From positions 1 to 64,000 of IMG/VR virus record IMGVR_UViG_3300006120_000015: a DNA stretch of 64,000 bases; one strand, written 5' to 3'. The notes beneath the pieces were generated by a model. That model saw nothing but the letters and a program-made list of their open reading frames with translations. It had not been told where the DNA came from and made no database searches. Shown here piece after piece: positions 10,554 to 50,564 of the stretch. The first letter of the stretch is position 1; each line of letters starts with the position of its first letter. The stretch comes from a virus. Taxonomy: Duplodnaviria; Heunggongvirae; Uroviricota; Caudoviricetes. The position numbers were made by a program, and so were the translations under genes.

Positions 10554-11687
10554 ATGTTAAATCGTAACCAAGTTGTGTTTGTTGAAGCTGCTCAAGAAAT
10601 TTTTGGCGTTGGTGCCATTCTTACTCGTGACGGTATTCAGCATGTGTGTGAAGAAAAGAATGTGAGTTTTCCTTATTGGTTGACCACTAAATCAGAGTAC
10701 CGTTATGACCGTGGTCAATACAAATTGCCAGTTATCAGTGCAGCAGTTGCCGAAGAAGAGCCAATGACAGTTGATATGTCAGCTCAAGTCTTGCAGTTGA
10801 AACAACCTAAACTGGTTGATGATTCTGATGTTTCAATTCCCACAAAATATCCCGATTATGTACCCTTTGGATTTTATAAAGACCTCACCAATATTATTAA
10901 TTCTGGTCAATTTTATCCTGTATTCATTACTGGCCTATCTGGTAACGGTAAGACCCTCATGGTTGAACAAGTTTGTGCCACACTTGGCCGTGAATGTATC
11001 CGTGTTAATATCTCGATTGAAACTGATGAGAGCGATTTGCTCGGTGGTCCTACTCTTGTTAATGGTAACGTGGTTAACCGTGACGGTCCTGTTTTACAGG
11101 CAATGAAACGTGGCGCCGTGTTGTTGATTGACGAAGTTGACCGTGGTTCTAATAAGTTGATGTGTTTGCAAGGTATCTTAGAAGGCAAACCATACTACAA
11201 CAAAAAATCTGGTGAAATGGTTTATCCTACCAATGGTTTCACCGTGATTGCTACTGCTAACACCAAAGGTCGTGGTAGTGAAGAAGGCAAGTACCTGTCA
11301 CAAATTCTTGATGATGCGTTCCTTGAGCGTTTCCCAATTACTGTTGAACAGGAATATCCTGATGCCAAAACAGAGAAAAAGATTCTCACACCATTGATCG
11401 ATGATTCCGAATTCGTTGACCTGTTGGTTAAATGGGCTGACATTGTACGACAATCAGCCGACCAAGGCGCCATCGATGAGATTATTTCTACTCGCCGTTT
11501 GGTCCACATTGCCAAAGCATACAAGATTTTCAAGAATCGTATGAAAGCCATTGAGCTGTGTGTCAATCGTTTTGATGCTGATACAAAAACAGCGTTTCTT
11601 GACCTGTACGCTAAATGTGATGTGAAGGTTGAAGCTGCACCTGTTGCTACTCCTGTACCACCAACTAACGAAGAAGTTCCATTCTAA
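10554..11687 (+). CDS. cobS: CobS-like AAA+ ATPase (MoxR family)
   Basis: Walker A GLSGNGKT, Walker B LLIDEVDR, size 377 aa; CobS-like genes are common in marine T4-like phages. Confidence 0.55.
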   Translation: MLNRNQVVFVEAAQEIFGVGAILTRDGIQHVCEEKNVSFPYWLTTKSEYRYDRGQYKLPVISAAVAEEEPMTVDMSAQVLQLKQPKLVDDSDVSIPTKYPDYVPFGFYKDLTNIINSGQFYPVFITGLSGNGKTLMVEQVCATLGRECIRVNISIETDESDLLGGPTLVNGNVVNRDGPVLQAMKRGAVLLIDEVDRGSNKLMCLQGILEGKPYYNKKSGEMVYPTNGFTVIATANTKGRGSEEGKYLSQILDDAFLERFPITVEQEYPDAKTEKKILTPLIDDSEFVDLLVKWADIVRQSADQGAIDEIISTRRLVHIAKAYKIFKNRMKAIELCVNRFDADTKTAFLDLYAKCDVKVEAAPVATPVPPTNEEVPF

Positions 11688-19209: not shown

Positions 19210-20535
19210 ATGCTAATTCTAGTTATCGACACGGGTGCGCTCGCACTCGATTGGTGTCTACGTTGCATCAATGCAGGACACACAGTAAAATGGTACACTA
19301 AAGGCTCCCGTTGCGATCATATTGGCCAAGGTTTGGTTGATAAAATTGATAACTGGAGAGCTTATGCTAAGGTTGCAGACCTAATTTTTGTAACCGACAA
19401 CATGACTCTCATGGATGAAATGCAGGAACTACAAGACAAAGGTTATCCTGTATTTGGACCAGGAAAGAAGTCTGCAAAACTAGAGTTGAATCGTATGTAT
19501 GGTCAAGACGTTATCCAAGAATTTGGTGGCGCAATCATTCCATCATTCGAATTCAAGAACTACGACAAAGCCATTCAATTCGTTAAAGATAATCCAAAGC
19601 GTTACGTTTCTAAGCCTTGCGGTGAAGAAGAAGATAAATCGCTATCATATGTTGCTAAAGATGAAGCAGATATGATTGGTTTCTTGACCAAACGCAAAGA
19701 AGCCGGTGGCAAAGCACCTTACTTCATTCTACAAGAATTCAAACCAGGTATTGAAATTGCTGTAACAGGCATTTTTGGACCAGGTGGTTGGGTTGACTAT
19801 TGGTGTGAAGGTTTCGAATTCAAGAAACAAATGAATGATGATCTTGGTGTTAACACCGGTGAAATGGGTACAGTTACTCGTTACACAAAAGAATCTAAAT
19901 TGGCTGACATGTTGATGAAGCCAATGGAAAAAGTTTTGAAGAAAATTGGTTATGTTGGTATGCTCGACATGAACTGTATCGTTGACGAGAAAGACGGTAC
20001 ACCATGGCCAATGGAATGGACTGCAAGACCAGGTTGGCCAATGTGGAACATCATGCAACCACTCATGGAAAATGATGACCCAGCAGAATGGATGTTAGAC
20101 ATTCTTAAAGGCAATTCAAAGACATTCAAAGCAAAAGAAGGCACATGTGTTGGTGTCGTTATGGCTAACTCAGACTTCCCTTTCAATAAGAAAGAAGAAG
20201 AATCATATTTGGACTTCCCTGTGATGACCGATGATGTTGGACCAAACGAGATTGATAACCTACACCCATGCGAAATTAAATTGACCAAGGCAATCAAGAT
20301 GATTGACGGTAAATTGGTTGAGGACGTACCTGAATGGGGCACCGCAGGTTCCTATATCATCGTATGTACTGGCACTGGTAATTCAGTTACAGAGGCGAAG
20401 GATAAGGCCTATGAGTTGGTGAAGAAGGTTAAATTTGGTAATGATGTGCAATATCGTACCGACATTGGTAACCGTTGTGAAAAAGCCTTGAAGAAACTAC
20501 AGAAATTTGGATTCTGCAAGGGCTGGAAATTTTGA
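19210..20535 (+). CDS. purD: phosphoribosylamine--glycine ligase (PurD/GARS) homolog, ATP-grasp
   Basis: Colinear similarity to PurD: FGPGKKSAKLE vs FGPTAGAAQLE, GVNTGEMG vs GPNTGGMG, FILQEFKPGIE vs IVIEEFLDGEE, C-terminal TEAKDKAYELV...DIG vs AEAQKRAYALM...DIG; 441 aa. Confidence 0.7.
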   Translation: MLILVIDTGALALDWCLRCINAGHTVKWYTKGSRCDHIGQGLVDKIDNWRAYAKVADLIFVTDNMTLMDEMQELQDKGYPVFGPGKKSAKLELNRMYGQDVIQEFGGAIIPSFEFKNYDKAIQFVKDNPKRYVSKPCGEEEDKSLSYVAKDEADMIGFLTKRKEAGGKAPYFILQEFKPGIEIAVTGIFGPGGWVDYWCEGFEFKKQMNDDLGVNTGEMGTVTRYTKESKLADMLMKPMEKVLKKIGYVGMLDMNCIVDEKDGTPWPMEWTARPGWPMWNIMQPLMENDDPAEWMLDILKGNSKTFKAKEGTCVGVVMANSDFPFNKKEEESYLDFPVMTDDVGPNEIDNLHPCEIKLTKAIKMIDGKLVEDVPEWGTAGSYIIVCTGTGNSVTEAKDKAYELVKKVKFGNDVQYRTDIGNRCEKALKKLQKFGFCKGWKF

Positions 20536-34915: not shown

Positions 34916-35803
34916 ATGAGTTCATTTGCAAATCTCAAAAAACAAGCCGGTCATTTAGACAAAATGAAAAAGGCTGTTGAAAGTATGAGCCAAAACGCTG
35001 GCTCTGACAAGCCTGATAACTTTTGGAAACCAGAAGTTGACAAAGCAGGCAACGGCATGGCAACCATCCGTTTTCTACCATCCTCTCCAGGTGACGGTGA
35101 AGATTCTCTACCATGGGTAAAGATTTTCTCTCACGGCTTTCAAGGTCCTGGTGGTTGGTTAATCGATAACTGTCTCACCACTAAGAACGAACAATGTCCT
35201 GTTTGTGAACACAACAGCCGCTTGTGGAATTCTGGTGACAAAGAAGATAAAGCACTCGTAAGCAAACAAAAACGTAAACTCAACTACGTTTCTAACGTCT
35301 ACATCGTTAGCGATCCAAAACATCCAGAAAATGAAGGCAAAGTATTCTTGTTCCGTTATGGCAAGAAAATCTTTGACAAATTGACTGAAGCGATGAATCC
35401 CGCTTTTGAAGATGAAACACCAATCAATCCATTTGATTTGTGGAAAGGTGCTAACTTCAAGTTGAAGATTCGTAAAGTTGATGGCTATCAAAACTATGAT
35501 AAGTCCGAATTCGAATCACCATCTGCTTTGTTGGATGATGACAGTGAATTGGAAAAGATTTGGAAGTCTGAATACACCTTGAAAGACTTGTTGCAAGACA
35601 AAGAGTTCAAGACATACGACCAATTGAAAGATCGCTTGGAAAAAGTTCTTGGTGAATCTACAGCACCTGCTCGTGCAACTGTTGCAGAAGAACCAAAAGC
35701 AGAAGTTAAGGTTGCAAAACCAAAAGCAGAAGCTAAAGAACCAGCTCCATGGGATGATGATGATTCAGCTTATTTCGATAAGTTGGCTCAGATGGATGAC
35801 TAA
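34916..35803 (+). CDS. gp32: gp32 single-stranded DNA-binding protein
   Basis: Colinear match to T4 gp32: FWKP.VDKAGNGMATIRFLPS, HGF...C...CPVCEH zinc site, GKVFLFRYGKKIFDKL vs GKVFKYRFGKKIWDKI, acidic C-terminus. Confidence 0.9.
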   Translation: MSSFANLKKQAGHLDKMKKAVESMSQNAGSDKPDNFWKPEVDKAGNGMATIRFLPSSPGDGEDSLPWVKIFSHGFQGPGGWLIDNCLTTKNEQCPVCEHNSRLWNSGDKEDKALVSKQKRKLNYVSNVYIVSDPKHPENEGKVFLFRYGKKIFDKLTEAMNPAFEDETPINPFDLWKGANFKLKIRKVDGYQNYDKSEFESPSALLDDDSELEKIWKSEYTLKDLLQDKEFKTYDQLKDRLEKVLGESTAPARATVAEEPKAEVKVAKPKAEAKEPAPWDDDDSAYFDKLAQMDD

Positions 35804-44997: not shown

Positions 44998-45315
44998 ATG
45001 GAAATCAATAATTTTTTCGGCAACAAAAACATGGTTTTTTGGGTTGGCACGATTGTCAACCGAGCTGATCCTTTGGCTATTGGTAGATGCCAAGTGAGAA
45101 TCTTTGGTTATCATACAGACAATAAAATGCTTTTGCCTGATGAAGATTTGCCTTGGGCACTTGCGATGTATCCAGTTAATGCATCAAATACTTTTTCTAA
45201 ACCTAGAATTGGTGAATGGGTAATGGGCTTCTTTATGGACGGTGAATCAGCACAGATGCCTATTATGATGGGTATTATCTCTGGTCTAGCAGAAGATCAA
45301 ACTTTGCAAGGATAA
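44998..45315 (+). CDS. gp5-like central spike N-terminal OB-fold protein
   Basis: VGTIVNRADPLAIGRCQVRIFGYH = gp5 N-terminal OB motif. Confidence 0.6.
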   Translation: MEINNFFGNKNMVFWVGTIVNRADPLAIGRCQVRIFGYHTDNKMLLPDEDLPWALAMYPVNASNTFSKPRIGEWVMGFFMDGESAQMPIMMGIISGLAEDQTLQG

Positions 45316-45318
45316 GAT

Positions 45319-46173
45319 ATGACAGATACCGTAGAAGTTGTATTTCCAACACCACCACAATTAGAAATAATAAAACAAGCTATATTAAGCGCAATTACTT
45401 CTAATACAACAACACCTCCAGTTGTATCTTCTAAACCAGTAGAACCGGTTCATACGGAAGACAAACCACAACCAAAAGGTCCGTCAAGTGTTCCTGTTTT
45501 GGCTAGAGGTCTTGCGGCAAACTCAGATACTGCAATACATGCATCAAATAAAACCATAAGACATGCGTGTGATAGTAGTACATATGTTGGCATGGCAGTA
45601 TTTCAAGCAGGTGCATTTGCAGGTCAAGTGGTTAACGCCATACGCACAGCAGTAAGAGCAATACTTAAAGCTCTTGGTTTATCTCCAAGTTCTACAGGTC
45701 TTGCAAACTATTTGGAAAAAATAGCACATGAAGTTGCAGACATTGCAAAACTTATTTCAAAAATTGCAAAAACCATACAACAAGTTATTGCATACATAAA
45801 TGCATTGAAGTCTCTTTTGGCTTTGATTTTGAATTTACCCGCAGAACTTCTTGCATATTTTAAAGACTGTATCAATACAATAAAAAAACAACTCGTATCT
45901 GGTTATAAGAGTGCATTTGTATCTGACGGCACAACACCTTCTGATGCAGAAGTTGATAATCTTGGTAAAGCAATTTCTGATGTACAAACAAGTTTAACAC
46001 AATTTAACACAGCTGTTAAATCTGCGGCAACAGCAAGTGCGGGATTAGCTTTTTCTTTAATAACACCAACACAAATAAATTCAGGTAATACACAAGCTCA
46101 AGCCGCAGCAACTCAAGCGGTCTTTGCCGCTGCAGGTTATTCTACATCATCAAACAGTTTTTCGAAACCTTAA
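45319..46173 (+). CDS. Ala/Ser/Thr-rich structural protein (between spike fragments)
   Basis: 284 aa; coiled-coil-like. Confidence 0.4.
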   Translation: MTDTVEVVFPTPPQLEIIKQAILSAITSNTTTPPVVSSKPVEPVHTEDKPQPKGPSSVPVLARGLAANSDTAIHASNKTIRHACDSSTYVGMAVFQAGAFAGQVVNAIRTAVRAILKALGLSPSSTGLANYLEKIAHEVADIAKLISKIAKTIQQVIAYINALKSLLALILNLPAELLAYFKDCINTIKKQLVSGYKSAFVSDGTTPSDAEVDNLGKAISDVQTSLTQFNTAVKSAATASAGLAFSLITPTQINSGNTQAQAAATQAVFAAAGYSTSSNSFSKP

Positions 46174-46174
46174 C

Positions 46175-46978
46175 ATGGCACAAATACAAGAACCACCATC
46201 AGCCTATGCGGCACAGTATCCACATAATAATGTAACGCAAACAGAATCAGGCCACTTCCAAGAGTTTGACGATACTCCTGGTGCTGAACGTATACGTACA
46301 CAACACCGTGCGGGAACTTTTGTTGAATGGCAACCTGATGGTACCGAAGTACATCGTATTGAGGGAAGTGGTTATAGAATTGTAGCCAAAGACGATAACG
46401 TTATCATTGAGGGTAAATGCAATATCAATATTGTTGGTAATGCAGAAGTAACCATTCAAGGTGATGCAATAACAAACATTCAAGGCAATCAAAGAACGGT
46501 AATTGAAAAAGACTGTGATGTAGTTGTTAAGGGAGACTACACACTTACAACATCTGGTGATATGTACTTTCAACCAGCAAGTGCATCATCTGCTATGTTT
46601 GTTCAGGCTGGTGACAGACTTGTTTTGAACACCGATTTAACTGTACACGGTAAATTTCTTGCCGATGATATTTCTTCTACTGGTGCAGTAACAGCAGGCA
46701 CAGGTATTCACGCAGGTGTTCCTGGTTCTGTAAACCCTGTTGCAGGTATCTCAACACTAGGTGGTGTTAACGTTGGTATTCCTGGTCCAACAATTCCTGG
46801 AACAGTTACTGCCACAGTCTTAGTAACTGCACCGGCAATCATTGGTTCTACTGTTGTATTTGGTGGTGTTCTAATGGATCCGGAAGGTGGTGCACCATTG
46901 ATTCGTTCTATTTACGATGCACACATTCACCCAACACCAAAAGGTCCAAGTGGTCCTCCAACAATTTTGATGCCCTAA
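46175..46978 (+). CDS. spike beta-helix protein (gp5 C-terminal / P2 gpV-like)
   Basis: Repeats VIIEGKCNINIVGNAEVTIQGDAITNIQGNQRTVIEKDCDVVVKGD typical of spike beta-helix. Confidence 0.5.
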   Translation: MAQIQEPPSAYAAQYPHNNVTQTESGHFQEFDDTPGAERIRTQHRAGTFVEWQPDGTEVHRIEGSGYRIVAKDDNVIIEGKCNINIVGNAEVTIQGDAITNIQGNQRTVIEKDCDVVVKGDYTLTTSGDMYFQPASASSAMFVQAGDRLVLNTDLTVHGKFLADDISSTGAVTAGTGIHAGVPGSVNPVAGISTLGGVNVGIPGPTIPGTVTATVLVTAPAIIGSTVVFGGVLMDPEGGAPLIRSIYDAHIHPTPKGPSGPPTILMP

Positions 46979-46988
46979 GGAATAGATT

Positions 46989-48470
46989 ATGTCACTAACA
47001 AGTAGATTAGGTTTAAACTTTGACACCACACGATTTGGTAACGCAAAGAACCTATCTTCAACTGCCGCAAATACACTCAACCTAATATCAAACAGTTCAG
47101 GTGGTGCAATACCTGGTTGGCAACAAAATGACTTGGCTCAAGGAAGTCCAGTCAGAAGCAATTACTTTCAAAATCCAACAACAAACTATTTGAATCAAAT
47201 CTCAACCGCAGCCAACACACTAATGATGGTTGCAAATACGATTGGTGATTCAAATACATCAAGTGCAGTTGCAAACTTACTTATTGAAATTGCAAGCTTT
47301 CAATCACACACAGATAATATCTCTGGTGTTGCAACCGTAACAGACCAAACATATCCATCATTCCAATCTGCTCAGAACATGGGTCAGTTGAACATGATGA
47401 CGTTATCAAAGTCTGATGGTGTAAACGATACGACGCCAATTCTTGGTTCTTACACCAGTTTGTTCATAAACGATCTATTAAGTTCAAACGCAAACACTAT
47501 TTTATATTTTGCAAACGAATATGCAAATTCAATTACATCCGTAGCTAACAATATAAGCGGTGGTTACGATTACTCAACAAATATTGCAAACACAGAAGTT
47601 GCAAACATAGATAGTTATCTTGCAAATACAACAATTTTGTTGATGACCAGAAGAACTGGCGACTGGTCATACTATCAAAATTCTGTACAATTAGCCAAAG
47701 ACGTTGGATTCTTATCACAGTTCAATAACTTGGGTGGTACTGCAACATATCTTGTTACCAATCTTGTTGGTACACAAAGATTGACTTCAAATATCGCAAG
47801 TACAATAGGAACGACTGTTGGAGCTACTGGAATCATGACACCAGGCACAAACAGTTCTGGTGGTACTGTTACAACTACTGGTCCAATTACTGTATTAGGA
47901 ACAATCACAACAGGTACATGGCAAGGCAGTACAGTTGCAACGGGTTACGGTGGTACAGGCCTAACTTCATTTACTTTAAATGGTGCTGTGTATGCCACAT
48001 CAGCAAACACACTAACAACAGGAACACTACCTGTTGCTTCAGGTGGTACGGGTACAAGATTGTCAACAGGTTCTGGTTCAGTTGTTTTGAACACAGCTCC
48101 GTTATTGACAAACGTAACGATGAACGGAAATACTGTTGTTATTAATATTTTTTCAACAATCATAACATCACAGTATTTGACTGCAAGTAATATTGTAGCA
48201 AGTAATATAACGGCATCTAACCTTGTTATTTTGAATGTAACTTCTGGCACTATAGTACCATCAAACACCTCAACTTACAACTTAGGTTCTGCATCAAATC
48301 GTTGGGCTAACATTTACACCAGTGACTTGCAATTAAGTAACGAAGCCAAAGGTCCAAATGATGTTGATGGAACAACAGGCAACTGGACTATACAAGAAGG
48401 TGAAAACGATTTGTTCATCATCAATAACAAGACAGGTAAGAAGTATAAGTTCTCGTTGGAGGAACTGTAA
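46989..48470 (+). CDS. tail fiber protein
   Basis: 493 aa, Ser/Thr/Asn/Gly-rich; C-terminal NLGSASNRWANIYT fiber motif. Confidence 0.55.
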   Translation: MSLTSRLGLNFDTTRFGNAKNLSSTAANTLNLISNSSGGAIPGWQQNDLAQGSPVRSNYFQNPTTNYLNQISTAANTLMMVANTIGDSNTSSAVANLLIEIASFQSHTDNISGVATVTDQTYPSFQSAQNMGQLNMMTLSKSDGVNDTTPILGSYTSLFINDLLSSNANTILYFANEYANSITSVANNISGGYDYSTNIANTEVANIDSYLANTTILLMTRRTGDWSYYQNSVQLAKDVGFLSQFNNLGGTATYLVTNLVGTQRLTSNIASTIGTTVGATGIMTPGTNSSGGTVTTTGPITVLGTITTGTWQGSTVATGYGGTGLTSFTLNGAVYATSANTLTTGTLPVASGGTGTRLSTGSGSVVLNTAPLLTNVTMNGNTVVINIFSTIITSQYLTASNIVASNITASNLVILNVTSGTIVPSNTSTYNLGSASNRWANIYTSDLQLSNEAKGPNDVDGTTGNWTIQEGENDLFIINNKTGKKYKFSLEEL

Positions 48471-49027
48471 TGTCTGTTATTGTTGGCAATGGAACCATAG
48501 ATGCTGGAAGTAGTTATTTCAGAATTACAGATAACTCGGCCAACGTTATTTTTGAACAAGGCGTTTCAAGTAATAATATTGGTTATGCACTACAAAAGGG
48601 TATACCAGGTTTTGTAGCTGCGCCAGCAACTGATCCAGGCTCATGGGTCGGTTACAACGGTTGGACAAAAGTATCTTCTTATTTCAACAATACCGCATAT
48701 AATAACGGAAATTGTTATGATACAACGGCCACTAGATTTAACGTGCCTATAAGTGGTCCTTATCTTTTTATCTATACCGCTTACGTTTATAGCAGTAGTT
48801 ATTCGCATTTTTGTTTTGCGGTAAATGGCGACACAGGTGCAAGAAGGGGTGGAAACACTTTTTACAGAATCAGAGGTTATGGTATGTTGTCAAATTATGA
48901 ACAAGATGCACAAATTGAAGAAGTGATTAATTGTGTGGCAGGAGATTACGTTGAACCCTATGGTTACGGCTCAGGAAGTAATTATTATCCGTGGGAAAGC
49001 GCTTTCATGGGCGTATATGTGGGGTAA
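48470..49027 (+). CDS. C1q/TNF-like domain protein, paralog 1
   Basis: CYDTTATRFNVPISGPYLFIYTAYVY ... AGDYVEP...SAFMGVYVG = C1q core and C-terminal FSGFLL-like motif. Confidence 0.6.
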   Translation: MSVIVGNGTIDAGSSYFRITDNSANVIFEQGVSSNNIGYALQKGIPGFVAAPATDPGSWVGYNGWTKVSSYFNNTAYNNGNCYDTTATRFNVPISGPYLFIYTAYVYSSSYSHFCFAVNGDTGARRGGNTFYRIRGYGMLSNYEQDAQIEEVINCVAGDYVEPYGYGSGSNYYPWESAFMGVYVG

Positions 49028-49029
49028 CT

Positions 49030-49623
49030 ATGCCAATTGACGTAAACGGAACAAGTATATCTGGTGGAACATCAGTTACTGCAACAGACAGTAACGGAAA
49101 CATCATATTCAATCAAAATTCAAACGGTCAAGTAACAAAGCCACAAAATAGTTCTGGTTCAACACTTATTCCTTTGTTTTCCGCCGGAATGAGTGGTTCT
49201 ACTTGGAGCCAATATGTTAGTTCAGGTAGTTGGGGTAAAATACCATATAACTATGGTGGTGGATCAGGTTACTTGAATGTAAACGGTTGTTACGATTTAA
49301 CCAATTCAAGATTTACTGCACCATGGACTGGATTCTATCTTTTCAAGTCACATTGTTACATTTACGGAAATGATGGTGGTGGTAGTTGGTATTGCCATCC
49401 AATGTATTGGGTAAACGGTTCGTCAAATTTAAGAAGAGCTGGTGGAACACTTTACAGAATTAGACAATATGGTTTGTATGCAAGTTATGGCCAAGATACG
49501 GATATTTCTGAGTTGATTTATTTGACTGCTGGTGATTATGTTGAAGTTTACTGGTATTCAAATGGAAATATGCAATCTTATGATCCTTACTGTTATTTTA
49601 GTGGTTGTTACATGGGGTACTAA
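49030..49623 (+). CDS. C1q/TNF-like domain protein, paralog 2
   Basis: CYDLTNSRFTAPWTGFYLF ... AGDYVEVYWY...YFSGCYMGY; starts MPIDVNG like paralog 3. Confidence 0.6.
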   Translation: MPIDVNGTSISGGTSVTATDSNGNIIFNQNSNGQVTKPQNSSGSTLIPLFSAGMSGSTWSQYVSSGSWGKIPYNYGGGSGYLNVNGCYDLTNSRFTAPWTGFYLFKSHCYIYGNDGGGSWYCHPMYWVNGSSNLRRAGGTLYRIRQYGLYASYGQDTDISELIYLTAGDYVEVYWYSNGNMQSYDPYCYFSGCYMGY

Positions 49624-50184
49624 ATGCCAATAGATATCAACGGATCAGTAATACAAACCAGCAATGCTGCAATACAAATTATCACAAACTCAGTTTTGGG
49701 TTTGGATACGTCTTCGTTGGGTTTTATGATTCAACCAACAAGACCTTTCTTTGTTGCAATTGATAACTATGCAGGATGGCACGCTTATCCATCTAACGAT
49801 TGGGTAACAATGATTTTTAACCAAAATCTATACGACAACACTAACAGTTACAACAACGTAAACGGTCGATTTACTGCACCTGTGACAGGAAGTTATCATT
49901 TTCAAGCTTCTACATATAGTTACAAAGGCTCGAGCGATCAATCCAGTTACGTACATCCAATCTTTAGGGTGAATGACAGTTATACGTTAAAACAAGCTAG
50001 TCAAACAACACCATACAGACTAAGATTGAGAACTTGGTATGCAGGTGGATATACCGGAGACACTCAAATTAACGAGATATTATATTTGAAAGCCGGTGAT
50101 TATGTAAATCTACATCATTACTCTAGCCAACAAAACTATTGGTACGGAACACAATCTTTTTTTAGTGGTTTTTTTATAGGATAA
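49624..50184 (+). CDS. C1q/TNF-like domain protein, paralog 3
   Basis: YNNVNGRFTAPVTGSYHFQAS ... KAGDYVNLHHY...FFSGFFIG. Confidence 0.65.
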   Translation: MPIDINGSVIQTSNAAIQIITNSVLGLDTSSLGFMIQPTRPFFVAIDNYAGWHAYPSNDWVTMIFNQNLYDNTNSYNNVNGRFTAPVTGSYHFQASTYSYKGSSDQSSYVHPIFRVNDSYTLKQASQTTPYRLRLRTWYAGGYTGDTQINEILYLKAGDYVNLHHYSSQQNYWYGTQSFFSGFFIG

Positions 50185-50190
50185 AGAAAA

Positions 50191-50466
50191 ATGGCAAATA
50201 CAACAATTACAATGGAATTTACAGAATTAGATTGGAAATGCTTGCGTTACTTTGCAGCGAATCCTGACGAATGGGCAAAAAACTTTGTCCGAGCAAGAAT
50301 TTATGCTGCAAAACAAGAAATCTATCAATCCGAAGTTAAACGAATGACTGCGGATCCTAGTATTAAAACAATTCCAGCAGATGTCGATACGGTTGTTGAA
50401 CAAGCGCAGATTAGGTTTGCAGACGAACAACCTCAGTTACCTGATATGAGACCACCTGGAGGATAA
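50191..50466 (+). CDS. hypothetical protein (91 aa)
   Basis: ORF. Confidence 0.4.
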   Translation: MANTTITMEFTELDWKCLRYFAANPDEWAKNFVRARIYAAKQEIYQSEVKRMTADPSIKTIPADVDTVVEQAQIRFADEQPQLPDMRPPGG

Positions 50467-50564
50467 TTTCAAAATTCGAAATTTTTCGTCCGGGGCTCCA
50501 AAAATGCCGGACGCAATCCAAGAGTTCCGGTAGCGAATTTAATTCCGAGCATGATAAATACTAG

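What the first reader, a model, noticed from the sequence alone, without database searches (positions are those of the whole stretch)
48470..50184. Three tandem C1q/TNF-like domain paralogs directly after the tail fiber gene
- **Paralog set:** three consecutive genes of 185, 210 and 186 aa.
- **C1q signature:** each contains the globular-C1q pattern: an (Y/C)(N/Y)D..(N/T)(G/S)(R/K)F(T/N)(A/V)P(V/I/W)(T/S)G.Y.F core strand, then AGDYV and a C-terminal FSGF-like end (FFSGFFIG, YFSGCYMGY, SAFMGVYVG).
- **Divergent tips:** paralogs 2 and 3 both start MPID(V/I)NG, but the mid regions differ.
- **Interpretation:** C1q/TNF trimeric jelly-roll domains as separately encoded receptor-binding tips would form a swappable or phase-variable adhesin set. 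This is rarely described for phages.
Basis: partly seen in the sequence, partly recalled or inferred. Interest (0 to 1): 0.75.

Follow-up and report, generated by a model that had tools for sequence, protein, structure and literature searches.

The report
Three-gene C1q tail-fibre tip cassette
An uncultured T4-like freshwater phage carries, right after a tail-fibre gene, three ancient paralogous genes with the same globular fold as complement C1q plus a small unannotated helper gene; they most likely build one fibre-tip receptor-binding head, possibly from three different chains, not a switchable set of adhesins.

Summary

The "swappable or phase-variable" reading is not supported:
- There are no inverted repeats, recombinase, reverse transcriptase or template repeat.
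- The genes abut or overlap.
- Each paralog has its own ortholog class in every relative, in the same order.
- They diverge no faster than neighbouring baseplate genes.
- Six contigs from other samples are 99.9–100% identical.

The three genes are the middle of a five-gene cassette. First comes a fibre ending in a domain shared with cyanophage fibres, then c1-c2-c3, then a ~91-aa helical protein ("p91").

p91 homologs sit directly downstream of C1q-headed genes in 48 of 49 loci, so p91 is probably a dedicated assembly chaperone. Complete p91-delimited units hold one C1q gene (30) or three (24), never two or four. Triplication arose at least twice.

Best reading: a C1q fibre tip, most likely a 1:1:1 heterotrimer like complement C1q. 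That step is inferred, not shown.

C1q receptor-binding proteins in phages are already known. The triplet and p91 are new variants.

The parts
46989..48470 (+). Tail-fibre protein (493 aa), first gene of the cassette. Its stop overlaps the c1 start codon (TAATG).
   Evidence: PHROG tail-fibre hits. C-terminus matches cyanophage P-SCSP1u fibre gp28 at E=2e-21. A protein ending in this domain precedes every short-form triplet whose upstream sequence is present.
48057..48464 (+). 'fibC' domain: the conserved C-terminal ~135 aa of the fibre (residues 357-492). Inferred docking platform for the C1q proteins.
   Evidence: Searches give nucleotide and protein similarity to cyanophage fibre C-termini. 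Host proteins of 101-902 aa always end in this domain immediately upstream of c1. The same 1-nt overlap with the next gene is seen in P-GSP1 and S-CAM4.
48470..49027 (+). c1: C1q-domain protein, 185 aa (N-terminal ~45-55 aa segment plus gC1q head).
   Evidence: PF00386 at 25.5 bits, above the 23.7 cut-off. The class profile hits only gC1q PDB chains. Ortholog clade bootstrap 83.
49030..49623 (+). c2: C1q-domain protein, 197 aa from the ATG at 49030 (not 210 aa from the GTG at 48991).
   Evidence: PF00386 at 19.2 bits, below the cut-off, but many orthologs carry a precomputed PF00386 hit. The class profile hits only gC1q chains. Ortholog clade bootstrap 96.
49624..50184 (+). c3: C1q-domain protein, 186 aa; head at residues ~58-185 (nt 49795-50178).
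   Evidence: PF00386 at 32.5 bits over the full domain. AF2 model has pLDDT 82.9, above 90 in most of the head. Foldseek top hits are human C1q A, C1QL2/3, caprin-2 and collagen X NC1, with probability 1.00. Ortholog clade bootstrap 63.
50191..50466 (+). p91: 91-aa helical-hairpin protein with a Pro-rich tail, last gene of the cassette. Probable C1q-head-specific assembly chaperone.
   Evidence: No Pfam hit and no source annotation; the only PHROG hit is weak (E=0.006, terminase large subunit). AF2 gives helices at 12-23, 25-54 and 65-70, pLDDT 82.7. In 48 of 49 p91-anchored loci the gene directly upstream ends in a C1q head. 181 representative clusters in 1.84 billion proteins.

Best explanation
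The three genes are the core of a five-gene, translationally coupled tail-fibre tip cassette: fibre ending in the fibC domain, then c1, c2, c3, then p91.

Each C1q protein has a short beta-rich N-terminal segment and a gC1q jelly-roll head. I propose that one copy each of c1, c2 and c3 assemble into a single heterotrimeric globular head, as the A, B and C chains of complement C1q do.

In this model the three N-terminal segments form a short stalk that docks on the trimeric C-terminal domain of the 493-aa fibre. p91 acts as the dedicated folding and assembly factor for the C1q head. The apical loops of the head bind a host envelope ligand during adsorption.

Shown:
- the gene anatomy
- C1q homology for all three proteins; the jelly-roll fold by model for c3 only
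- ancient 1:1:1 orthology with fixed gene order
- cassette conservation and mobility
- obligate linkage of p91 to C1q-headed genes
- lack of any switching machinery

Inferred:
- trimer composition (heterotrimer)
- docking on fibC
- the chaperone role of p91
- receptor binding

The confidence of 0.5 refers to the whole statement, including the heterotrimer. The narrower claim of a conserved C1q fibre-tip module with a dedicated p91 partner, not a switchable set, I would put at about 0.8.
For: C1q family membership.

The cassette behaves as a unit:
- Every short-form triplet is preceded by a fibC-ending protein, wherever upstream sequence is present, and followed by a p91 homolog. Gaps between the C1q genes run from -4 to +8 nt (one ORF-call artefact aside).
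- The cassette sits between gp5 and gp25 here and in L001.
- It sits beside NUDIX/gp15/gp13 in L003 and L004, and on a 608-kb contig in L108.

The paralogs are ancient and non-redundant:
- Orthologs are 46-75% identical, against 30-42% between paralogs.
- The class clades have bootstrap 83, 96 and 63, each with exactly one gene per locus in 12 loci.

'Three' recurs:
- The long-form (~315 aa) triplets form their own clade (bootstrap 99) with three internal classes. Triplication therefore arose at least twice.
- Within a long-form triplet, chain lengths are matched (316/308/314 and similar).

Unit logic:
- After dereplication, complete p91-delimited units contain one C1q gene (30 units) or three (23, plus L036, shown to be a triplet cut by the contig edge). 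None contains two or four.
- Independent C1q fibres in tandem each have their own p91 (L134-137, L062, L096).
- This holds even in L096, where the solitary head is 38-41% identical to c1-c3, about as close as those are to each other (39-46%).

Chaperone analogy: in cyanophage P-GSP1 the fibC fibre is followed by a 171-aa protein and then a Phage_tail_APC chaperone scoring 53.6 bits.

Precedents:
- Complement C1q is an A/B/C heterotrimer encoded by three tandem genes (established knowledge; the single-chain A-C-B construct 5hkj is the top PDB sequence hit).
- Three consecutive tail-tip genes of virophage DSLV2 form a biochemically shown 1:1:1 heterotrimer (PMC12724248).
Against: - No multimer prediction or experiment was possible, so heterotrimer versus three homotrimers is unresolved.
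- The 24 triplet units belong to few lineages (short form, long form, L035, L023/L108). The number of independent events is small (2-4).
- Doublets of C1q genes exist in more distant families (L038, L069, L072), without an adjacent p91. L039/L040 have a p91-like gene 175 nt away.
- No natural fusion of several heads in one chain was found.
- Very few positions are invariant within each class yet different between classes.
- Gene conversion or long-branch effects could mimic independent triplication in a neighbour-joining tree of 134 columns.
- fibC also occurs in cyanophages followed by non-C1q proteins, so it is not a C1q-specific dock.
- p91 matches no known chaperone family and no solved fold.
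- Virion association and receptor binding are untested.
Confidence: 0.5

Rival explanations
1. Three separate homotrimeric tips. Each of c1, c2 and c3 forms its own homotrimer (as adiponectin, C1QL or collagen X do). All three use the same conserved N-terminal segment to dock on the same fibre site, so virions carry a fixed mixture of three receptor specificities. One p91 serves all three.
For: - Most C1q-family members and most phage fibres are homotrimers (established knowledge).
- The paralogs share the N-terminal motif, and in the long form the whole stalk, more strongly than the heads. This fits a common anchor with different specificities.
- Multi-RBP phages with tandem paralogs are common.
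- C1q doublets exist elsewhere.
- Few class-specific invariant positions were found.
Against: - Copy number is fixed at exactly three, with one member of each class in every relative and no loss, gain or single-gene replacement.
- The genes evolve no faster than baseplate genes.
- There is one fibre gene and one p91 per triplet, whereas independent C1q fibres each carry their own p91.
- p91 units hold 1 or 3 genes, never 2 or 4.
- A trimeric fibre end offers one three-fold docking site, so three homotrimers would compete for it.
Confidence: 0.3
2. The three genes are alternative, swappable or phase-variable tips, of which a given virion or lineage uses one. Switching would occur by inversion, recombination or targeted hypermutation.
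For: Tandem paralogs with divergent mid-regions sit next to a fibre gene. C1q-domain genes are under-recruiting 'metaviromic islands' in some marine and cryoconite phages (PMC3909814, PMC7468147).
Against: - No inverted repeats or crossover sites.
- No template repeat in the window.
- No invertase or reverse transcriptase among the ORFs tested.
- All genes are co-oriented and translationally coupled.
- Stable 1:1:1 orthology and fixed order across relatives.
- 99.9-100% identity across six other assemblies, and no excess divergence relative to the flanks.
Confidence: 0.03
3. Structural, non-receptor role. The C1q heads are a cap, knob or decoration. For example, they could form part of the central spike, as in the knob of Staphylococcus phage phi812, given the position just after the gp5 genes. 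In that case they would stabilise or terminate a fibre or spike rather than determine host recognition.
For: - The Foldseek rank-2 hit is the phi812 central-spike knob (9eul, E=1.3e-8).
- The cassette lies immediately after the gp5 OB-fold and beta-helix genes.
- The conservation level is that of structural core genes, not of fast-evolving receptor-binding proteins.
Against: - In L003/L004 and other relatives the cassette is not next to gp5.
- fibC is the distal end of a lateral fibre in a T7-like cyanophage.
- C1q heads are the C-terminal tips of long fibre proteins in many other phages (848-1377 aa).
- C1q heads are ligand-recognition modules throughout the family (established knowledge).
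Confidence: 0.1

Closest known systems
Vertebrate complement C1q (A, B, C chains; gC1q heterotrimer)
   Same: - Same domain family and fold (PF00386). Top PDB sequence hit is the single-chain A-C-B head 5hkj at E=1.8e-20; top Foldseek hit is the C1q A chain.
- Three distinct paralogous chains are encoded by three adjacent genes.
- The head is a pattern-recognition module.
   Different: - No collagen-like Gly-X-Y stalk. A ~55-aa beta-rich N-terminal segment takes its place.
- Heterotrimer formation is inferred here, not shown.
- The paralogs arose by independent triplication inside phages.
- A dedicated small partner gene (p91) accompanies them.
Phage C1q-domain putative receptor-binding proteins (pelagiphage and other metagenomic phages; Mizuno et al. 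2014, PMC3909814; Bellas et al. 2020, PMC7468147)
   Same: A C1q-like domain protein is encoded next to or just downstream of the tail fibre and is interpreted as a receptor-binding protein.
   Different: - Those are single genes described as hypervariable, under-recruiting islands.
- Here there is a fixed, slowly evolving triplet with 1:1:1 orthology, a conserved fibC partner upstream and p91 downstream.
- None of the papers found in the searched library mentions triplets or heterotrimers in connection with phage C1q proteins; the search that combined C1q, phage and heterotrimer returned nothing.
Tripartite tail proteins of virophage DSLV2 (PMC12724248)
   Same: - Three consecutive, co-oriented, similar-sized (196-247 aa) paralogous tail-tip genes, conserved across a lineage.
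- They are related to Synechococcus phage fibres.
- Co-purification, native PAGE and EM show a 1:1:1 heterotrimeric receptor-binding complex.
- This is the same organising principle as proposed here.
   Different: - Different fold and family: phage tail collar PF07484, a gp37-like needle ~16 nm long, against the globular C1q head (no PF07484 hit).
- Different virus type.
- No p91-like partner is described.
Separately encoded fibre-tip adhesin plus assembly chaperone systems (T2 gp37/gp38, lambda Stf/Tfa, Mu/P2 Tfa; Pfam Phage_tail_APC PF16778)
   Same: The gene order is fibre, then distal protein(s), then a small assembly protein. P-GSP1 shows exactly this after a fibC-ending fibre, with a true PF16778 chaperone.
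   Different: - p91 has no detectable similarity to PF16778, to Tfa or to any solved fold.
- The tip is a C1q head in three chains.
- The chaperone function of p91 rests on position and co-occurrence only.
C1q/TNF-like knobs fused to fibres: eCIS fibres (PMC12923769), S. aureus phage phi812 central-spike knob (9eul), Limnohabitans phage DC33 848-aa protein, BclA
   Same: A C1q-like jelly-roll forms the distal globular end of a trimeric fibre. DC33 and many metagenomic fused fibres are also followed by a p91 homolog.
   Different: In those cases the head is the C-terminal domain of one long chain, hence a homotrimer. Here the heads are split off as three separate short genes.

Membership tests
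C1q domain family (Pfam PF00386, gC1q) | Sequence profile match at or above the curated threshold | tested here: met
   c1 scores 25.5 and c3 32.5 bits against a cut-off of 23.7. c2 alone scores 19.2, below the cut-off. However, c2 is 35-38% identical to c1 and c3, many c2 orthologs carry PF00386, and its class profile hits only gC1q PDB chains.
C1q domain family (Pfam PF00386, gC1q) | Ten-strand jelly-roll fold of the globular head | tested here: met
   Tested for c3 only. The AF2 model has pLDDT above 90 in most of the head. Foldseek against the PDB gives C1q A/B/C, C1QL1-3, caprin-2, collagen VIII/X NC1, cerebellin and CTRP5, with probability 1.00 and target-normalised TM up to 0.81. c1 and c2 were not modelled.
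C1q domain family (Pfam PF00386, gC1q) | Assembly into a trimer through the head | not testable with these tools
   No multimer prediction is available.
Complement-type C1q proteins (C1q, CTRPs, collagens VIII/X) | N-terminal collagen-like Gly-X-Y stalk | tested here: not met
   No run of 4 or more Gly-X-Y triplets in c1, c2, c3 or the fibre. These proteins are therefore members of the domain family, not of the collagen-stalked C1q protein class.
Complement-type heterotrimeric C1q (A/B/C) | Three distinct chains from adjacent genes, each conserved as its own ortholog class | tested here: met
   Class clades have bootstrap 83, 96 and 63, with one gene per locus and fixed order.
Complement-type heterotrimeric C1q (A/B/C) | 1:1:1 co-assembly of the three chains in one head | not testable with these tools
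   Only indirect support: p91 units hold 1 or 3 genes, there is one p91 per unit, and the genes are translationally coupled.
Phage tail-fibre distal tip / receptor-binding protein | Encoded with, and conserved together with, a tail-fibre gene | tested here: met
   A fibC-ending fibre lies directly upstream in all short-form cassettes whose upstream sequence is present. The fibre identity rests.
Phage tail-fibre distal tip / receptor-binding protein | Present in virions and binds a host surface receptor | not testable with these tools
   The phage is uncultured and no proteomics or host is available. The genome-collection scan found only one unrelated locus.
Tail-fibre assembly chaperones (Phage_tail_APC PF16778 / Tfa-type) | Profile match of p91 to a known chaperone family | tested here: not met
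   No Pfam hit at E<=1. The only PHROG hit is weak (E=0.006) and implausible. No fold match. p91 is therefore not filed as a member; only the position and co-occurrence resemble a chaperone.
Phase-variable / invertible or DGR-diversified adhesin sets | Inverted repeats or crossover sites with a site-specific recombinase, or a template repeat with a reverse transcriptase | tested here: not met
   Searches find no such repeats. Searches find no recombinase or RT among the 20 flanking or large ORFs scanned. Not every small ORF of the window was scanned.

The most novel reading that the evidence does not exclude
Phages have independently, and at least twice, evolved a heterotrimeric gC1q head from three tandem paralogous genes. 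This is the same solution as vertebrate complement C1q. The head is assembled with a previously unrecognised, C1q-head-specific small chaperone family (p91). It is carried as a mobile cassette that plugs onto fibres ending in the fibC domain, in genomes ranging from T4-like phages to a 608-kb contig.
Probability: 0.45. Interest if true: 0.7.

Novelty: new variant of a known kind. Interest (0 to 1): 0.5.

Why it matters
- **Heterotrimeric tip.** If the triplet is a heterotrimer, it would be the first phage receptor-binding tip built from three different C1q chains. It would also be a striking convergence with complement C1q. An asymmetric head offers three different binding surfaces instead of one repeated three times.
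- **New helper family.** Independently of that, p91 is a widespread, wholly unannotated family (181 clusters at 50% identity). Its strict placement after C1q-headed genes gives a practical annotation rule for receptor-binding modules of uncultured aquatic phages. It is also a candidate helper needed to express such tips for host-range or binding studies.
- **Correction of the switching idea.** The work shows that these tandem paralogs are not a variable switching system.

Tried and rejected
- **Single-chain c2-c3 model.** c2 and c3 are in frame and adjacent, so I tried them as one AlphaFold chain. With plain letters, MAFFT aligned the c3 homologs onto the c2 half. I dropped the idea; it could not have separated homo- from hetero-assembly anyway.
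- **Fold search with the p91 model.** No meaningful match.
- **Genome scan for host or prophage clues.** The scan of 185,579 bacterial and archaeal genomes returned only one distant Cytobacillus locus.
- **Rosetta-stone fusions.** No natural fusion of several C1q heads was found. L087 looks like a fusion or frameshift of the two adjacent genes seen separately in L039.
- **Promoter, terminator and T4 late-promoter scans.** All at chance level.
- **Class-specific invariant positions and head isoelectric points.** Uninformative.
- **First bootstrap run.** It was invalid because saturated distances produced NaNs. I redid it with capped distances.
- **Isolate phage collection.** Nucleotide and tblastn searches gave no close relative. 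They found only the fibC stretch in cyanophages and one fused C1q fibre in Limnohabitans phage DC33.
- **Virophage homology.** I considered whether c1-c3 belong to the same family as the DSLV2 heterotrimer proteins. That is rejected: those carry PF07484, which is absent here.


Full report

Yes. Three consecutive + strand ORFs occupy 48470-49027 (185 aa, c1), 49030-49623 (c2) and 49624-50184 (186 aa, c3). All orthologs (192-201 aa) and the public gene calls begin at the ATG at 49030 with MPIDVNG, giving 197 aa.

The three are clear paralogs. BLASTP gives 31-38% identity with E-values from 5e-21 to 4e-28.

Pfam C1q (PF00386) is matched above its gathering score by c1 (25.5 bits) and c3 (32.5 bits, whole domain). 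c2 scores 19.2 bits, below the cut-off.

- A profile of the c3 class hits the single-chain human C1q head 5hkj at E=1.8e-20, and then only C1q-family chains.
- Separate profiles of the c1 and c2 classes also hit only gC1q chains.
- An AlphaFold2 model of c3 has mean pLDDT 82.9, above 90 in most of the head.
- Foldseek matches that model to C1q A/B/C, C1QL1-3, caprin-2 and collagen VIII/X NC1. It also matches the knob of the Staphylococcus phage phi812 central spike.

The quoted motifs are present. The C-terminal ends were listed in reverse gene order, and c1 shares the N-terminal motif too. There is no collagen-like stalk.

**2. Context**

The window is part of an uncultured T4-like myovirus. 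The identical protein occurs on a 166,639-bp contig, and no close cultured relative exists.

The genes around the finding form a baseplate cluster:

| Position | Genes |
|---|---|
| Upstream | tube cap, wedge, gp27-like, gp5 split into an OB-fold piece and a beta-helix piece |
| Finding | 493-aa fibre, c1-c3, a 91-aa gene |
| Downstream | gp25, gp6-like, gp7-like |

The 493-aa protein is fibre-like. Its last ~135 residues (fibC) match the C-terminus of fibre gp28 of cyanophage P-SCSP1u at E=2e-21. That distal part was not resolved in the cryo-EM study (PMC10575957).

**3. The unit is a five-gene cassette**

In a 66%-identical relative (L001) the order is the same: fibre, c1, c2, c3, 91-aa gene, then gp25 and gp6. 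In a 46%-identical relative (L003/L004) a 204-aa fibC protein, the three C1q genes and a 90-aa gene sit in a different neighbourhood, beside NUDIX, gp15 and gp13.

Every short-form triplet found in IMG/VR is preceded by a protein ending in fibC, wherever upstream sequence is present. The total length of that protein ranges from 101 to 902 aa. Every triplet is followed by a p91 homolog, and gaps between the C1q genes run from -4 to +8 nt (one ORF-call artefact aside). One copy lies on a 607,744-bp contig (L108).

In the window the junctions are TAATG (1-nt overlap), then 2 nt, 0 nt and 6 nt. Promoter and terminator scans inside the cassette are at chance level.

**4. Ancient, fixed paralogs rather than a variable set**

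Orthologs are 46-75% identical, and paralogs only 30-42%. In a neighbour-joining tree of 79 heads, c1, c2 and c3 each form a clade with exactly one gene per locus. Bootstrap support is 83, 96 and 63.

Between the window and L001 the C1q proteins are 66-75% identical. That is no more divergent than gp25 (52%), gp6 (68%) or the fibre (64%). Six contigs from other samples are 99.9-100% identical across the region.

There is no sign of switching machinery:

- no inverted repeats or crossover sites
- no template-like repeat anywhere in the window
- no recombinase or reverse transcriptase among the 20 flanking or large ORFs scanned

The phase-variable or swappable reading is therefore not supported.

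**5. p91**

The 91-aa gene at 50191-50466 has no Pfam hit or source annotation and only a weak, implausible PHROG hit. It is predicted to be a helical hairpin with a proline-rich tail and has no solved structural match. An exhaustive profile search finds 181 representative clusters, mostly 70-130 aa.

Anchoring a census on p91 rather than on C1q gives a clear result. In 48 of 49 viral loci the gene directly upstream ends in a C1q head, whether that gene is 155 or 1360 aa long. The single exception has p91 at the contig edge.

The one cultured example, Limnohabitans phage DC33, has an 848-aa protein with a C-terminal C1q head followed by a p91 homolog.

In cyanophage P-GSP1 the fibC-ending fibre is followed, with the same 1-nt overlap, by a 171-aa protein and then a true Phage_tail_APC chaperone. 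By position and strict co-occurrence, p91 is most likely a C1q-head-specific assembly factor. It is not a member of any known chaperone family.

**6. One head from three chains, or three heads?**

This could not be tested directly, because no multimer prediction was available. The indirect evidence favours a heterotrimer.

(a) After dereplication, complete p91-delimited units contain one C1q gene (30 units) or three (23 units). The only apparent doublet, L036, is a triplet cut by the contig end: its first 178 nt encode a class-1 head C-terminus. None has four.

(b) A second family of ~315-aa proteins also occurs as triplets. These proteins share an N-terminal anchor and a stalk of matched length. 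Their heads form a separate clade (bootstrap 99) with three internal classes (86, 98, 84). Triplication therefore arose at least twice.

(c) Independent C1q fibres lying in tandem each have their own p91 (L134-137, L062). In L096 a solitary 255-aa C1q fibre has its own p91, although its head is 38-41% identical to c1-c3. That is about as close as c1-c3 are to one another (39-46%).

(d) There is one fibre gene per triplet, and the genes are tightly coupled.

(e) Precedent exists. Complement C1q is an A/B/C heterotrimer from three adjacent genes. Three consecutive tail-tip genes of virophage DSLV2 were shown by co-purification, native PAGE and EM to form a 1:1:1 heterotrimer (PMC12724248). Those proteins have a different fold (tail collar, PF07484).

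Evidence on the other side:

- The triplets come from only a few lineages.
- C1q doublets occur in more distant families, mostly without an adjacent p91.
- No natural multi-head fusion exists.
- Class-specific invariant positions are few.
- The tree is a simple distance tree.

I put the heterotrimer at about one half, three homotrimers at about one third, and other roles in the remainder.

**7. Comparison with what is known, and novelty**

C1q-domain proteins beside phage tail fibres have been proposed as receptor-binding proteins since 2014 (PMC3909814; also PMC7468147). C1q heads also occur on eCIS fibres (PMC12923769).

I found no description of the following:

- the fixed three-gene arrangement with its own ortholog classes
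- the recurrence of that arrangement in a second family
- the fibC/C1q/p91 cassette
- the p91 family itself

Literature searches combining C1q, phage and heterotrimer returned nothing. I rate this a new variant of a known kind, of moderate interest. It would become considerably more interesting if the heterotrimer is confirmed.

Noticed in passing
window 50191-50466: A 91-aa helical protein (p91) with no annotation anywhere. Its homologs lie directly downstream of C1q-headed genes in 48 of 49 viral loci. It is a probable new family of fibre-tip assembly factor (181 clusters at 50% identity).
   Followed up: yes
window 48057-48470; L091 3697; L092 3698: The fibre's C-terminal domain (fibC) is shared with cyanophage fibres (P-SCSP1u gp28, P-GSP1, S-CAM4). 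In each case the next gene starts with a 1-nt overlap on the fibre's stop codon, but the downstream proteins differ. This suggests a general plug-in site for separately encoded distal proteins.
   Followed up: partly
L092 6320-6811 (Synechococcus phage S-CAM4): A 163-aa hypothetical protein is C1q-like (PF00386 at 23.6 bits, just under the cut-off; BclA_C at 21.6 bits). It lies downstream of a fibC-ending structural protein and two ~430-aa paralogs. It is not annotated as C1q-like in the record.
   Followed up: partly
window 44998-46978: The gp5-like central spike is split into separate ORFs: a 105-aa OB-fold piece, a 284-aa protein of unclear function, and a beta-helix protein. No lysozyme domain was detected. 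The listed TTG start at 46124 is probably wrong; the ortholog in L001 starts at MAQIQEPP, which corresponds to the ATG at 46175.
   Followed up: no
window 50487-50513: A hairpin (CGTCCGG ... CCGGACG, 7-bp stem, 13-nt loop) lies in the 98-nt gap between p91 and gp25. No T-run follows it. Its function is unknown.
   Followed up: no
L108 (IMGVR_UViG_3300046665_000548, 607,744 bp): The same fibC / three C1q / p91 cassette occurs on a 608-kb viral contig (a very large phage, or a mis-binned contig). Here fibC is a stand-alone ~101-aa protein.
   Followed up: no
P0186 (1602 aa), P0298 (1514 aa); P0240, P0243 and others (~190-215 aa): Some proteins contain 2 to 9 repeated p91-like stretches. These include two giant proteins and a set of double-length ones. 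The long-form triplets are followed by two p91-like genes (80-87 aa and 109-113 aa).
   Followed up: no
L003 2054-4176: In the relative where the cassette has moved, it lies next to a Trp-halogenase-like gene and a 2OG-Fe(II) oxygenase gene. Fe(II)-dependent oxygenases are also listed among host-recognition island genes in PMC3909814.
   Followed up: no
window 19210-20535, 10554-11687, 34916-35803: Three other gene identifications: a GARS (purD-like) gene that may be an auxiliary metabolic gene, a CbbQ/AAA_5 ATPase, and gp32 single-strand binding protein. A block of minus-strand genes at ~35.9-41.7 kb coincides with a skew shift.
   Followed up: no
L011 (PQ492659.1, Limnohabitans phage DC33): The record's taxonomy line says Inoviridae. 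However, the 39-kb genome encodes a 3126-aa protein, an 848-aa C1q-tipped fibre-like protein and an endolysin, so the classification looks wrong.
   Followed up: no
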